Source: a phage
DNA: 64,000 bases
Direction: 5' to 3' (one strand)
Sequence record: PV946933.1
Part shown: positions 53,603-63,673 of the stretch, piece after piece
How the letters are laid out: each line of letters begins with the position of its first letter
Numbering within the stretch: position 1 is the first letter of the stretch
Notes under the pieces: model-generated
The model's input: only the letters and a program-made list of their open reading frames with translations
Told to the model about the DNA's origin: nothing
Databases searched by the model: none
Translations under genes and position numbers: made by a program

Positions 53603-53875
53603 ATGAAAACTTTCAAAGAGTTTATCGTTGAATCTGCTCTTAATGAAGAAGTAAAAATTAGCAAATCTGTTAAGACTATGATTGATAATATAAATCATCT
53701 TTATAACATTGATTTGACGAATCATGTAACGTTAGGAAATAAACGAAACTTTTTTGTATTTGATATTTCAGAACTTGATCAGAATCAAATTAATAATATT
53801 GAACGCTTTGCTAATGAAAAAGGTCTGCGTCACGAGACGGCTGGTTATAAAAAATATGCAATTTATTTAAAATAA
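53603..53875 (+). CDS. internal-protein-like head protein with capsid-targeting leader (ipI position, 90 aa)
   Basis: N-terminus MKTFKEFIVE; position next to 57B. Confidence 0.6.
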   Translation: MKTFKEFIVESALNEEVKISKSVKTMIDNINHLYNIDLTNHVTLGNKRNFFVFDISELDQNQINNIERFANEKGLRHETAGYKKYAIYLK

Positions 53876-53942: not shown

Positions 53943-54251
53943 ATGAAAACATATCAAGAATTTATCAATGAAGCGGCTGCACCAAAGACATTCGTTATTA
54001 ATACTCAGGCGAGTCTTGATGATGAGTACGCGGAGGCAATTCTGAGGTCACTTGCTAAGAACGGCGTTGAAGTAATCGCCTCGGACTTTAAGAAAGGGGC
54101 TTCCGAGATGTTTATTTCTATAACTAAAGGATCTAAAGCTAAAATCAAATCATCATTCGGTGTTGCTCGTACCGATCAAATCGACAATCATGACTTTAAA
54201 CAAACTGGTGTTAAACGGCAGAACACAATTGCATCACGCGGAATAAAATAG
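53943..54251 (+). CDS. IPII-paralogous internal protein with capsid-targeting leader
   Basis: MKTYQEFINE leader; body aligns with the ipII product (PKTFVINTQASLDDEYAEAI vs PKVFQICSQGNLDKEYVDAI). Confidence 0.65.
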   Translation: MKTYQEFINEAAAPKTFVINTQASLDDEYAEAILRSLAKNGVEVIASDFKKGASEMFISITKGSKAKIKSSFGVARTDQIDNHDFKQTGVKRQNTIASRGIK

Positions 54252-57454: not shown

Positions 57455-58018
57455 ATGAAAACCTATGCCGAATTTTTAACCGAAGCAGCAAAATTACCAT
57501 CTGAAGCAGAACTTACTAAAGTATTCTTCCAATTGGACCCAAAAGACCGTGGCGATTTTCTTAAGTGGAAAGCTAAAGCTATTGAAATGTATAACATCGA
57601 TAATAGTTCTTTTACGATGAGTCAAGAAAATAAATTCAATAAAGCATTTTTCAAAATTTCTAAGAAATTAGCATCTGGCGCTCAGGTTCCTAAATCTGCA
57701 TTAGCTACTCCTGAACGTGCACCTGTTAAAATTTCTAAGAATATGTTCGACACTAAAAAATACGTTAATGCTTTGAATAAAGCTCTTGATGCATTGGATG
57801 ATGCAAAGAAGGCAGCCCGTGATCTTCAAGACGTGTACACCGATTTTGATCGTAAAACTAAAGGTTCTATTTCAAATAGCGAACGCAATAGTGTAAGTGT
57901 TTATTCTGATAGCCTTGATGTTCTTGGCGATGCGTATACTGAAATTAAAAATCGTATTAACACCGCATCTAAGCTAAAAGCTGCCGTAGAAGCTATAATA
58001 ACTAAACTAGGTAAATAA
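57455..58018 (+). CDS. internal-protein-like head protein with capsid-targeting leader (187 aa)
   Basis: N-terminus MKTYAEFLTE; Lys/Ala-rich body. Confidence 0.6.
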   Translation: MKTYAEFLTEAAKLPSEAELTKVFFQLDPKDRGDFLKWKAKAIEMYNIDNSSFTMSQENKFNKAFFKISKKLASGAQVPKSALATPERAPVKISKNMFDTKKYVNALNKALDALDDAKKAARDLQDVYTDFDRKTKGSISNSERNSVSVYSDSLDVLGDAYTEIKNRINTASKLKAAVEAIITKLGK

Positions 58019-60759: not shown

Positions 60760-61728
<969 letters not shown>

Positions 61729-61743
61729 AGTTGTTTACTTTCT

Positions 61744-61772
61744 CCTAGAACTGTGATAGTATATTCATAGTT
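61744..61772 (+). promoter_or_regulatory. early-promoter-like GTTTAC ... TGATAGTAT
   Basis: -35 at 61744-61749; -10 at 61764-61772. Confidence 0.5.
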
Positions 61773-61799
61773 ACTAATTAAAATATTTAAAGGAACCAT

Positions 61800-62117
61800 A
61801 TGAAAACGTTTAAAGAATTTATTGCAGAATCTGCCCAAGGACAACGTGTAGAAGGCGGTTATATCTGGATTGAACAAGTTGAGCCGCCAAGTCGCACTTC
61901 TACAGGTAAATGGAAAATCACTGTTGATGGTCCTGGTGGTAAACGTAGGACTCTTAAAGAAATTAACGGGTACTATGAAGAAGCTCTTTCTGACGCGGGT
62001 ACTTATATGATGCAAATCATGATTAAAAACCCAGAAAATCGTTTTGCGGCTAGAGTTTTCCGCCGTATTGGAAATAAGCTTTATGATGCATATTCTAAAA
62101 ACTTCCCTAAAGAATAA
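61800..62117 (+). CDS. internal-protein-like head protein with capsid-targeting leader (105 aa)
   Basis: N-terminus MKTFKEFIAE; basic body. Confidence 0.6.
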   Translation: MKTFKEFIAESAQGQRVEGGYIWIEQVEPPSRTSTGKWKITVDGPGGKRRTLKEINGYYEEALSDAGTYMMQIMIKNPENRFAARVFRRIGNKLYDAYSKNFPKE

Positions 62118-62132
62118 AAATAAAGGAAATAC

Positions 62133-62711
62133 ATGAAAACCTATAAAGAATTTATCGCTGAAGCTTCTGTAGTAAAGGCCAAAGGCATTAATAAAGATGA
62201 GTGGACTTATCGTGGCGGAAACGGCTTTGACCCTAAAACTGCTCCACTTGAACGATATCTAGCCACAAAAGCTTCTGATTTTAAAGCCTTCGCCTGGGAA
62301 GGACTTCGCTGGCGTAACGATCTAAATATTGAAGTTGACGGACTTAAATTTGCTCATATTGAAGATGTTGTTGCTAGTAACTTAGACGCAGCTTTTGTTA
62401 AAGCCGACAGTGATCTTCGTCGCTGGAATTTAAAACTGTTCTCTAAACAAAAAGGCCCGAAGTTTGTGCCTAAAGCCGGTAAATGGGTCATTGATAATAA
62501 ATTAGCTAAGGCTGTCAACTACGCTGGTCTTGAATTCGCCAAGCACAAATCATCATGGAAAGGTCTTGATGCAATGGCTTTCCGTAAAGAATTTGCCGAT
62601 GTTATGGCTAAAGGCGGCTTTAAGGCAGAAATAGATACCTCTAAAGGTACGTTTAAGGACGCTAATGTTCAGTACGCTTATGCCGTTGCTAATGCAGCCC
62701 GTGGTAATTAA
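62133..62711 (+). CDS. ipIII: internal protein III
   Basis: MKTYKEFIAE leader; 192 aa; position next to e; recalled similarity to T4 IPIII. Confidence 0.8.
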   Translation: MKTYKEFIAEASVVKAKGINKDEWTYRGGNGFDPKTAPLERYLATKASDFKAFAWEGLRWRNDLNIEVDGLKFAHIEDVVASNLDAAFVKADSDLRRWNLKLFSKQKGPKFVPKAGKWVIDNKLAKAVNYAGLEFAKHKSSWKGLDAMAFRKEFADVMAKGGFKAEIDTSKGTFKDANVQYAYAVANAARGN

Positions 62712-62752
62712 TAAGGCCTATACTTAGGCCTATTTACATTTAAAGGAAACAT

Positions 62753-63055
62753 ATGAAAACATTTAAAGAATTTATCACTGAAGCAAAAGCCCCGAAGGTT
62801 TTTCAAATTTGTTCACAAGGAAATTTAGACAAAGAATACGTTGACGCCATCGTAGCAAGCATTGTCAACCAAGGCGTGCAAGTAGATGCAGTTGAATTTA
62901 CCAAAGGCCCTACCTTTAATATCGTTGTATCTAAGGGTTCTTTGGCTAAAATTAAAAAGGCCTGGGGTGTTATGAGAGCTTACCAAGTAGATGATTCTGC
63001 TCCCGGGCCGAAAGTACGAATGAATACCCTTAAGGGAGGCCGTGAATACGTTTAG
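62753..63055 (+). CDS. ipII: internal protein II
   Basis: MKTFKEFITE leader; 100 aa; position. Confidence 0.75.
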   Translation: MKTFKEFITEAKAPKVFQICSQGNLDKEYVDAIVASIVNQGVQVDAVEFTKGPTFNIVVSKGSLAKIKKAWGVMRAYQVDDSAPGPKVRMNTLKGGREYV

Positions 63056-63133
63056 GCCTATTGTCTATACTTATTAGAATATTATACGGACTACCATGTG
63101 CCACGGAATGGCCCAACCTAAAAGAGAAACTAA

Positions 63134-63673
63134 ATGAGAACATTTTTAACTGGTCCTTATCTATCCCTGATGAATGCTTTTACACACCATTCTGATGCTA
63201 GAGTAGAAGAAATTTGTAAAAACGATTATATCCCACCATTTGAAGACTTACTCAAACAGTATTGCACACTTCGACTAGATGGTGGACGTCAATCCGGTAA
63301 ATCAACTGCAATAACTAATTTTGCCGCTAATTGGTTATATGATGGTGGAACAGTTATTGTTCTTTCTAATACTTCAGCTTACGCTAAAATTTCTGCGGGC
63401 CACATTAAAAAAGAGTTTTCTCGTTATTCTAGCGATGATATTCGATTCCGCTTATTTACCGATTCTGTCCGTAGTTTTATCGGTAATAAAGGAAGCAAGT
63501 TCAGAGGTTTATCGCTTTCGCGGATTTTGTATATAATCGATGAGCCTGTTAAATCTCCTGATATGGATAAAATTTACGATATTCATATTGAAACTGTGCA
63601 CCACTGTTGCAATAGTAAATGCTGCATTGGTGGTATTACTCGTCCACAGTTTTTCATAATCGGAATGCAATGA
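63134..63673 (+). CDS. small P-loop NTPase (179 aa)
   Basis: Walker A GGRQSGKST and Walker B ILYIIDEP; four Cys near the C-terminus. Confidence 0.55.
   Translation: MRTFLTGPYLSLMNAFTHHSDARVEEICKNDYIPPFEDLLKQYCTLRLDGGRQSGKSTAITNFAANWLYDGGTVIVLSNTSAYAKISAGHIKKEFSRYSSDDIRFRLFTDSVRSFIGNKGSKFRGLSLSRILYIIDEPVKSPDMDKIYDIHIETVHHCCNSKCCIGGITRPQFFIIGMQ

What the first reader, a model, noticed from the sequence alone, without database searches (positions are those of the whole stretch)
61744..62117. Additional internal-protein-like gene with its own early promoter between e and ipIII
A 105-aa ORF with the leader MKTFKEFIAE and a basic body (GKRRTLKEINGYYEE...RVFRRIGNKLY) is preceded by a GTTTAC...TGATAGTAT promoter. 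I do not recall a gene at this position in T4. A basic injected protein could be a nucleic-acid-binding or host-factor-targeting effector.
Basis: partly seen in the sequence, partly recalled or inferred. Interest (0 to 1): 0.55.

Follow-up and report, generated by a model that had tools for sequence, protein, structure and literature searches.

The report
Ip10 internal head protein gene
The 105-codon gene between the lysozyme gene e and ipIII is a real but already catalogued "internal protein" (Ip10) of T4-like phages: it is probably packed into the phage head and injected with the DNA, most likely to disarm a host defence, but its target is still unknown.

Summary
ORF 61800-62117 (+) encodes a 105-aa basic protein (pI 9.5) with the leader MKTFKEFIAE. 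A GTTTAC-N-TGTGATAGTAT promoter lies at 61733-61762. T4 has no gene at this position.

The gene is not new. It belongs to the Ip10 family (phrog_3966). It is annotated ip10 / putative internal head protein in phages VR20 and JLBYU22, and named Ip10 for Shigella phage SP18. Relatives occur in 190 phage records from four Tevenvirinae genera, and some proteins are 100% identical to this one. It is under purifying selection (dN/dS 0.2-0.36) and gives a confident beta-beta-beta-alpha-beta-beta model with no known structural relative.

The promoter is not the gene's own. It is the conserved promoter 4 nt after the e stop codon, which drives ipIII in T4 and denV in JLBYU22. Homology to T4 runs through the promoter and Shine-Dalgarno site and ends inside the leader codons. 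This suggests ip cassettes are swapped by recombination in the leader-coding repeats.

By analogy with T4 Ip1, Ip2 and Ip3, each a specific inhibitor of a GmrSD type IV restriction enzyme, Ip10 is most likely a packaged, gp21-processed, injected anti-defence protein. Packaging and target are inferred, not shown. Interest is low to moderate.

The parts
61234..61728 (+). Gene e (T4-type lysozyme), the upstream neighbour. Late promoters TATAAATA lie at 61200 and 61213.
   Evidence: Pfam Phage_lysozyme, E 1.4e-13. 503 near-identical phage records. TATAAATA positions.
61733..61762 (+). T4-early-type promoter: -35 GTTTAC at 61733-61738, extended -10 TG at 61754-61755, -10 TAGTAT at 61757-61762. It is the conserved post-e promoter, which is the ipIII promoter in T4.
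   Evidence: Almost base-for-base identical to the T4 e-ipIII spacer. The same element sits 4 nt after the e stop in ADUt, JLBYU22 (before denV) and T4. Pattern count is 6 on the + strand, 0 on the - strand, 0.08 expected. Activity was not tested.
61789..61795 (+). Shine-Dalgarno region AAAGGAA, 4 nt upstream of the ATG
   Evidence: Sequence. All three ip genes of the cluster share the same aaaggaaNNNat-ATG context.
61800..61829 (+). Codons 1-10, MKTFKEFIAE: predicted capsid targeting sequence ending in the prohead-protease site I-A-E
   Evidence: 8 of 10 residues identical to the T4 IPII/IPIII leader MKTYQEFIAE. M1 K2 T3 E6 F7 E10 are invariant in the family across four genera. [LI]-x-E at residues 8-10 is the only such site kept in all orthologues. 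The definition of the CTS and of the L/I-x-E site is from PMC9026906.
61830..62117 (+). Predicted mature Ip10 (95 aa, about 10.9 kDa, pI 9.6) plus stop codon. The domain is beta-beta-beta-alpha-beta-beta.
   Evidence: phrog_3966, E 2.4e-33. AlphaFold2 mean pLDDT 83.8, pTM 0.74. dN/dS 0.2-0.36. pI and mass.
62133..62711 (+). ipIII (192 aa, leader MKTYKEFIAE). It follows ip10 after a 15-nt spacer, and no GTTTAC-type promoter was found in front of it.
   Evidence: 94% identical to T4 IPIII. phrog_5341, E 1e-117. No GTTTAC-type promoter between 61763 and 63055.
62714..62731 (+). Hairpin AGGCCTATACTTAGGCCT between ipIII and the third ip gene
   Evidence: Terminator-like scan. Function not tested.
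62753..63055 (+). Third leader-bearing gene (100 aa, MKTFKEFITE). It belongs to the Ip7 family and is not a homologue of T4 IPII.
   Evidence: phrog_2667, E 1e-37. T4 IPII gives no tblastn hit in the window. Relatives are annotated ip7 / internal head protein 7 in VR7, VR20 and T2.

Best explanation
The ORF encodes Ip10, a member of the diverse set of internal proteins (Ips) of T4-like phages.

Proposed mechanism:
1. The gene is transcribed from the conserved early promoter just after e. Late in infection it is probably also transcribed by read-through from the late promoters of e. It would be co-transcribed with ipIII and possibly the Ip7-like gene.
2. The 10-residue N-terminal capsid targeting sequence directs the precursor into the scaffolding core of the prohead.
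3. The prohead protease gp21 cuts after Glu10 (site I-A-E) and releases a 95-residue basic protein. This protein stays in the head with the DNA.
4. It is injected with the DNA at the next infection.
5. In the host cell it most likely binds and blocks one specific 'first-response' defence enzyme. The leading candidate is a subtype of the GmrSD type IV restriction family, which attacks the modified cytosine DNA of T-even phages. T4 Ip1, Ip2 and Ip3 each do this for a different subtype.

The gene behaves as a movable cassette. It is gained, lost and re-slotted by recombination within the near-identical leader-coding sequences and Shine-Dalgarno contexts shared by ip genes.

Shown here: the gene is real and conserved, the leader and cleavage motif are present, the promoter is shared, and the arrangement is cassette-like. 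Inferred: packaging, processing, injection and the anti-defence role.
For: Leader: 8 of 10 residues match the T4 IPII/IPIII leader. In T4 the first 10 residues of IPIII suffice for head targeting. Residues 4 and 7 matter for targeting and residues 8 and 10 for processing at L/I-x-E (PMC9026906). Here residue 4 is aromatic (F; Y in most orthologues), residue 7 is F, residue 8 is I, and residue 10 is E. E10 and F7 are invariant across four genera.

Position: the gene lies inside the e-vs.8 ip cluster, next to ipIII and an Ip7-like gene. Orthologues lie in the same interval in Tequatrovirus, Gaprivervirus, Karamvirus and Kanagawavirus.

Family: phrog_3966, E 2.4e-33. Named ip10 / putative internal head protein in VR20 and JLBYU22, and Ip10 for Shigella phage SP18.

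Real protein: dN/dS 0.2-0.36; pLDDT 83.8; basic like IPII and IPIII.

Patchy distribution, typical of arms-race genes: 141 of about 503 records that carry a near-identical e gene hold ip10 DNA. The neighbours vary: ipIII in at least 22 records, ip4 in G50, ADUt and JLBYU22. In PG7 the gene overlaps the end of e.

Cassette logic: homology with T4 ends inside the leader codons. The 3' spacer of ip10 is the same whether ipIII or ip4 follows.

Functional analogy: T4 Ip1, Ip2 and Ip3 each inhibit one distinct GmrSD system with no cross-protection (PMC12373910). IPIII is needed to infect ECOR17 and works without its leader when expressed in the host (PMC9391042). A review describes T-even Ips as a diverse set of defence proteins that share only the CTS (PMC3012670).
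Against: No direct evidence was found that Ip10 is in any virion, is cut by gp21, or is injected. No proteomics paper naming it turned up.

Silas et al. tested 'ip4-10' against a panel of GmrSD variants and found no reproducible inhibition (PMC12373910 Supplementary Fig. 9). I could not verify from the held text that their ip10 is this family. If it is, the commonest enterobacterial GmrSD classes are not its target.

Ip10 shows no sequence or fold similarity to Ip1-3 beyond the leader, so the functional analogy rests on context only.

Residue 4 is Phe here instead of Tyr, and I did not find the effect of this change on targeting.

The -10 hexamer TAGTAT is imperfect, and promoter activity was not tested.
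Confidence: 0.6

Rival explanations
1. Ip10 is packaged and injected but has no specific host target. It would act as a generic basic DNA-associated head protein that neutralises charge, helps DNA packing or ejection, or contributes to core assembly. This was long assumed for IPII and IPIII.
For: It is basic (pI 9.6, net +4.5), like the other Ips. Lysines of internal proteins contact DNA phosphates in the T4 head, and IPIII mutants show head assembly aberrations (PMC3012670; PMC9026906). No target was found for ip4-10 in the GmrSD panel.
Against: A generic role does not explain the patchy, cassette-like presence in only about a quarter of close relatives. It also does not explain a well-conserved compact fold with many invariant non-basic residues (G19 G20 Y21 W23 E25 D43 N77 P78 N80). 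All three T4 Ips once thought generic turned out to be specific inhibitors.
Confidence: 0.2
2. Ip10 is an injected anti-defence protein, but its target is not a GmrSD-type enzyme. It would block another early-acting system, for example another modification-dependent nuclease or a sensor of incoming DNA.
For: ip4-10 gave no reproducible effect on 15 GmrSD groups, 8 of them active. The fold has no relative among known inhibitors. Srikant et al. argue that injected proteins should act on first-response systems in general.
Against: Every T-even Ip with a known target so far hits a GmrSD enzyme. GmrSD diversity is far greater than the panel tested.
Confidence: 0.15
3. The protein is not packaged. 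The leader is an inherited remnant of cassette recombination, and the protein acts only as an early cytoplasmic product. Alternatively, the ORF is not a functional gene at all.
For: The only promoter seen directly upstream is of the early type. No TATAAATA late promoter lies between e and the ORF. Packaging is unproven.
Against: The leader, with E10 and F7, is strictly conserved in orthologues only 50% identical overall, which argues for selection on the leader itself. The late promoters of e lie about 600 nt upstream with no terminator-like site in between. dN/dS of 0.2-0.36 and a confident fold exclude a non-gene.
Confidence: 0.05

Closest known systems
Ip10 of T4-like phages (gene ip10 in vB_EcoM_VR20, whose note refers to VR7 Ip10; Ip10 of Shigella phage SP18; PHROG family phrog_3966)
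   Same: Full-length homology: 70-71% identity to VR20 and SP18 Ip10, and E 2.4e-33 to phrog_3966. Length, leader and genomic interval (between e and vs.8) are the same. The protein is 100% identical in vB_EcoM_G50, KIT06, GEP001 and F13076.
   Different: Nothing essential. The immediate neighbours differ: denV upstream and other ip genes downstream in VR20, and ip4 downstream in G50. The leader here has F4 and K5 instead of Y4 and Q5.
[quoted passage not shown]
   Same: The 10-residue capsid targeting leader ending in L/I-x-E, small size, basic charge, the same gene cluster and the same promoter type. In the window Ip10 takes over the promoter that drives ipIII in T4.
   Different: No detectable sequence similarity beyond the leader. 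The predicted fold (beta-beta-beta-alpha-beta-beta) differs from the published description of IPI*, which has two beta sheets flanked by N- and C-terminal helices (PMC3012670). No target is known for Ip10.
T4 early promoters (GTTTAC -35 element with an extended TGn -10)
   Same: GTTTAC, spacing, and TGn followed by TAnnnT. The pattern is strand-specific and strongly enriched in the window. Similar elements precede two other leader-bearing genes at 53603 and 53943.
   Different: The -10 hexamer TAGTAT deviates from TATAAT at two positions. Activity and timing were not measured here. The consensus itself is from my memory of the T4 literature, not from a paper I could open.

Membership tests
T4-type internal proteins (CTS-bearing Ips) | N-terminal 10-residue capsid targeting sequence resembling MKTYQEFIAE, with residues 4 and 7 important for targeting | tested here: met
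   MKTFKEFIAE matches the T4 IPII/IPIII leader at 8 of 10 positions. F7 is invariant and residue 4 is Y or F in the family. The definition is from PMC9026906.
T4-type internal proteins (CTS-bearing Ips) | Prohead protease gp21 cleavage motif L/I-x-E at the end of the leader (residues 8-10) | tested here: met
   I8-A9-E10 is present. [LI]-x-E at residues 8-10 is conserved in all 8 orthologues examined, whereas internal [LI]-x-E sites are not conserved.
T4-type internal proteins (CTS-bearing Ips) | Small basic protein encoded in an ip gene cluster | tested here: met
   Mature form is 95 aa with pI 9.60. It lies between e and ipIII, followed by an Ip7-like gene.
T4-type internal proteins (CTS-bearing Ips) | Physically present in the mature head, N-terminally processed, and ejected into the host with the DNA | not testable with these tools
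   This needs virion proteomics or N-terminal sequencing. No paper in the held library reports it for Ip10.
Ip10 family (phrog_3966) | Full-length sequence homology to named Ip10 proteins | tested here: met
   phrog_3966 matches residues 1-105 with E 2.4e-33. SP18 Ip10 (P0002) is 70% identical over 100% of the query. VR20 ip10 is 70% identical.
GmrSD (type IV restriction) inhibitors Ip1/Ip2/Ip3 | Homology in sequence or fold to Ip1, Ip2 or Ip3 beyond the leader | tested here: not met
   Cross-hits between Ip families cover only residues 1-21. T4 IPII and IPIII do not hit the ORF. No PDB fold match was found, and nothing annotated as an internal protein appears in the listed matches.
GmrSD (type IV restriction) inhibitors Ip1/Ip2/Ip3 | Demonstrated inhibition of a GmrSD-family nuclease | not testable with these tools
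   Published test of 'ip4-10' against GmrSD variants found no reproducible interaction (PMC12373910, Supplementary Fig. 9). The sequence identity of their ip10 to this family could not be verified.
T4 early promoter | GTTTAC -35 element, about 17 nt spacing, and TGn-extended -10 upstream of an early-strand gene | tested here: met
   Located at 61733-61762. Pattern count is 6 on the + strand, 0 on the - strand, 0.08 expected. It is conserved at the same spot in T4, ADUt and JLBYU22.
T4 early promoter | Transcription initiation by unmodified or Alt-modified host RNA polymerase early in infection | not testable with these tools
   No transcript data for this phage. The T4 omics paper I opened does not mention ipIII.

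The most novel reading that the evidence does not exclude
Ip10 is an injected inhibitor with a previously unseen fold. Its target would be a host defence not yet linked to T-even phages, either an untested GmrSD subtype or a different first-response system. The ip10 / ipIII / ip4 / ip7 cassette combinations at the e-vs.8 locus would then work as a readable 'barcode' of which defences a given T-even phage can overcome.
Probability: 0.35. Interest if true: 0.5.

Novelty: already known. Interest (0 to 1): 0.25.

Why it matters
For this window, the result is mainly a correct annotation. This phage carries at least six leader-bearing predicted internal proteins within the 64 kb, twice T4's three, and Ip10 is one of them. 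More broadly, Ip10 is an orphan member of a class whose three characterised members are all highly specific inhibitors of type IV restriction enzymes. It is widespread (190 phage records, four genera), well folded and under selection, yet has no known target. That makes it a sensible candidate for host-range and anti-defence screens, and relevant to choosing therapeutic T-even phages. The junction analysis also shows concretely how ip genes are exchanged: the promoter and Shine-Dalgarno site stay fixed, while gene bodies are swapped between leader-coding repeats.

Tried and rejected
1. Distant homology. An exhaustive HMMER profile search of 1.84 billion representatives found, beyond the phage family, only three giant repetitive proteins: two trypanosomatid FAZ1-type coiled-coil proteins and one TIG-repeat protein. 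Their scores come from 9-24 summed weak repeat matches. I rejected them as repeat artefacts.

4. Pfam, NCBIfam and a PDB sequence search found nothing.

5. Literature searches for 'Ip10' mostly returned unrelated uses of the term, and no paper on the phage protein was found. The key older papers (Miller 2003, Repoila 1994, Rifat 2008) are not held.

6. I could not verify that the 'ip10' tested by Silas et al. is this family, because no sequence is in the held supplements.

7. The generic sigma-70 scan missed the promoter, so I replaced it with a T4-specific pattern test.

8. The 120-aa ORF on the minus strand at 61653-62015 is a mechanical ORF with no support and was disregarded.

Full report
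**Observation**

The window is a T-even-type (Tequatrovirus) phage genome segment. Lysozyme gene e lies at 61234-61728 (+). Three consecutive + strand ORFs follow, and each begins with a near-identical leader:
- 61800-62117: 105 aa, MKTFKEFIAE
- 62133-62711: 192 aa, MKTYKEFIAE
- 62753-63055: 100 aa, MKTFKEFITE

. The first of these is the finding. The protein is basic: pI 9.52, or pI 9.60 and net charge about +4.5 after removal of the first ten residues. Its two neighbours are very similar in this respect. The promoter string is GTTTAC (61733-61738), then 15 nt, then TG (61754-61755), one base, and TAGTAT (61757-61762). The stated start coordinate (61744) therefore falls inside the promoter rather than before it.

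**Is it a real gene?**

Yes.
- tblastn finds full-length relatives in 190 phage records. Of these, 132 are at least 95% identical, 17 are 60-80% identical and 41 are below 60%.
- Orthologues from Tequatrovirus, Gaprivervirus (VR20), Karamvirus (CC31, PG7) and Kanagawavirus (Kosakonia phage 305, IME523) align end to end with about 40 invariant positions.
- Pairwise dN/dS between diverged orthologues is 0.2-0.36.
- AlphaFold2 on an 11-sequence alignment gives mean pLDDT 83.8 and pTM 0.74. The model has a low-confidence N-terminal helix (the leader) followed by a compact beta-beta-beta-alpha-beta-beta domain.

**What is it called?**

The protein matches PHROG family phrog_3966 over its whole length (E 2.4e-33; the family is labelled 'unknown function'). 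It matches no Pfam or NCBIfam family. Most GenBank records call it 'hypothetical protein'. However:
- VR20 annotates it as gene ip10, 'putative internal head protein, similar to bacteriophage VR7 Ip10'.
- JLBYU22 notes 'internal head protein Ip10'.
- The database cluster for Shigella phage SP18 is named Ip10.
- A few records call it 'internal head protein' or, inconsistently, IpII.

Proteins 100% identical to the window's are found in vB_EcoM_G50, KIT06, GEP001 and Salmonella phage F13076. The family is therefore already catalogued, although I found no experimental work on it.

**Comparison with T4**

T4 has e followed directly by ipIII, ipII, denV and vs.8, with no ip10.

Aligning the window's e-to-ip10 spacer with T4's e-to-ipIII spacer shows near-identity through four stretches: the last codons of e, the GTTTAC...TGTGATAGTAT promoter, the AAAGGAA Shine-Dalgarno region, and the first leader codons. 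T4 has 16 extra bases in the spacer. Similarity ends only inside the leader-coding sequence.

The same promoter sits 4 nt after the e stop codon in ADUt, where ip10 follows, and in JLBYU22, where denV follows and ip10 comes next. So the promoter is a fixed feature of the locus, and in T4 it is the ipIII promoter. It is not a promoter that came with ip10.

In the window no further GTTTAC-type promoter precedes ipIII or the third ip gene. T4, by contrast, has such elements before ipII and denV. The 15-nt spacer after ip10 is nearly the same whether ipIII (window) or ip4 (JLBYU22, ADUt) follows.

Together these junctions indicate that gene bodies are exchanged between the roughly 30-nt leader-coding repeats and their shared Shine-Dalgarno context. 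I recall this idea from Repoila et al. 1994 but could not open that paper.

**Is the promoter more than chance?**

A generic sigma-70 scan did not call it, because it matches 8 of 12 hexamer positions. A T4-specific pattern (GTTTAC, 12-15 nt, TGnTAnnnT) occurs six times on the + strand of the 64-kb window and never on the - strand. First-order Markov simulations expect 0.08 per strand. Two of the other five sites lie about 60 nt upstream of two other leader-bearing genes, at 53603 and 53943. The element is therefore very likely a real early-type promoter, though its activity was not tested.

Late promoters (TATAAATA) occur only upstream of e, at 61200 and 61213. No terminator-like site lies between e and the end of ipIII. 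Late read-through into ip10 is therefore plausible, but it is an inference.

**Distribution and arrangement**

- About 503 records carry a near-identical e gene, and 141 of them carry ip10 DNA.
- ip10 is followed directly by ipIII, as in the window, in at least 22 records.
- In G50, ADUt and JLBYU22 it is followed by a 157-aa protein noted as Ip4.
- In VR20 it sits after denV and before two other ip genes.
- In CC31 and the Kanagawaviruses it sits between denV and vs.8.
- In PG7 it overlaps the end of e, in the slot that holds ip5 in VR20.

This is the behaviour of a mobile, dispensable cassette.

**Leader and processing logic**

According to the Black tribute review (PMC9026906):
- the first ten residues of T4 IPIII are sufficient for incorporation into the head;
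- residues 4 and 7 matter most for targeting;
- residues 8 and 10 matter for processing;
- the prohead protease gp21 cuts after Glu in the short motif L/I-x-E.

The T4 IPII and IPIII leaders are MKTYQEFIAE. The window's Ip10 has MKTFKEFIAE, with an aromatic residue at position 4, F at 7, I at 8 and E at 10. Across the family M1, K2, T3, E6, F7 and E10 are invariant. [LI]-x-E at residues 8-10 is the only such site conserved in all orthologues. This conservation, in proteins that are otherwise only about 50% identical, argues that the leader itself is under selection.

**Function**

Sequence and fold comparisons give no handle.
- An exhaustive profile search of 1.84 billion representatives found only the phage family, including a 149-aa variant in phage EcS1 with an insertion of about 50 residues, plus three repeat-protein artefacts.

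The functional inference therefore rests on context.
- Silas et al. 2025 (PMC12373910) showed that T4 Ip1, Ip2 and Ip3 each inhibit one distinct GmrSD type IV restriction system, with no cross-protection. They state that many more Ips are recognisable by their signal sequence.
- Srikant et al. 2022 (PMC9391042) showed that IPIII is required to infect ECOR17, and that it works without its leader when supplied in the host.
- The T4 head review describes T-even Ips as a diverse set of anti-restriction proteins sharing only the CTS (PMC3012670).

By analogy Ip10 is most likely another packaged, injected, target-specific anti-defence protein. One result counts against a simple extension of this. 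Silas et al. tested 'ip4-10' against their GmrSD panel and found no reproducible interaction. I could not confirm that their ip10 is this family.

My confidence that this is a CTS-bearing internal protein of the Ip10 family is about 0.9. My confidence that it is an anti-defence effector is about 0.5-0.6. My confidence that the target is a GmrSD-type enzyme is about 0.3-0.4.

**Verdict**

It is not a new kind of element. Its remaining interest is as an orphan injected protein with an unknown target and an unrecognised fold.

Noticed in passing
window 53603-53875, 53943-54251, 57455-58018, 61800-62117, 62133-62711, 62753-63055 (all + strand): Six ORFs in the window begin with the T4-type leader MKT[YF]xEF[IL]xE, so this phage encodes at least six predicted internal proteins, twice T4's three. 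The 187-aa one at 57455-58018 falls in phrog_2280, which is labelled 'unknown function' and so is not recognised as an internal protein family. The 102-aa one at 53943 is a paralogue (same phrog_2667) of the one at 62753.
   Followed up: partly
window 62753-63055: The gene in the 'ipII slot' is not a homologue of T4 IPII (no tblastn hit). It is an Ip7-family protein. Apart from phage LYE-01 (100%), its closest relatives are in Klebsiella phages (91% and about 75%), which suggests cross-genus cassette exchange.
   Followed up: partly
whole window; T4 slot between ipII and vs.8 (window about 63056-63133): T4 DenV (endonuclease V) has no tblastn hit anywhere in the 64-kb window. The gene is missing from its T4 position, and G50 shows the same absence at this locus. 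I did not check whether denV lies elsewhere in the genome.
   Followed up: partly
window 63134-63673: The vs.8 homologue (92% identical to T4 Vs.8) is 179 aa, against 219 aa in T4, and lacks the T4 N-terminal region of about 40 residues. It gives weak hits to P-loop and terminase-N profiles.
   Followed up: no
window 62714-62731: A perfect 7-bp hairpin, AGGCCTATACTTAGGCCT, lies in the 41-nt spacer between ipIII and the Ip7-like gene. It is not followed by a clear T-run, so it could be an RNA stability or processing element rather than a terminator.
   Followed up: no
window 53543, 53879, 54264, 58186, 5218 (+ strand): Five further GTTTAC-N-TGnTAnnnT early-type promoters lie on the + strand. 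Several share a longer conserved core (GTGATACTATTACC...TATCAA). Two sit directly upstream of leader-bearing ip genes.
   Followed up: no
L006 (Enterobacter phage PG7) 2501-2797; L005 (VR20) 1695-1976: In PG7 the ip10 homologue overlaps the 3' end of e by 14 nt. This is the slot that holds ip5 in VR20 and an unnamed 96-aa ORF in CC31. The same ip gene can therefore occupy different slots of the locus.
   Followed up: no
P0011 (Escherichia phage EcS1, 149 aa): This is a distant Ip10-family member (32% identity) with the same leader. It carries an insertion of about 50 residues between the leader and the conserved core, so it is a two-module variant of the family.
   Followed up: no
window 61900-62400 compared with Escherichia phage LYE-01: The e-to-ip10 region is 100% identical to LYE-01, but the stretch spanning the ip10-ipIII junction is only 96% identical. 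The window is therefore mosaic relative to its closest database relative, even within about 1 kb.
   Followed up: no
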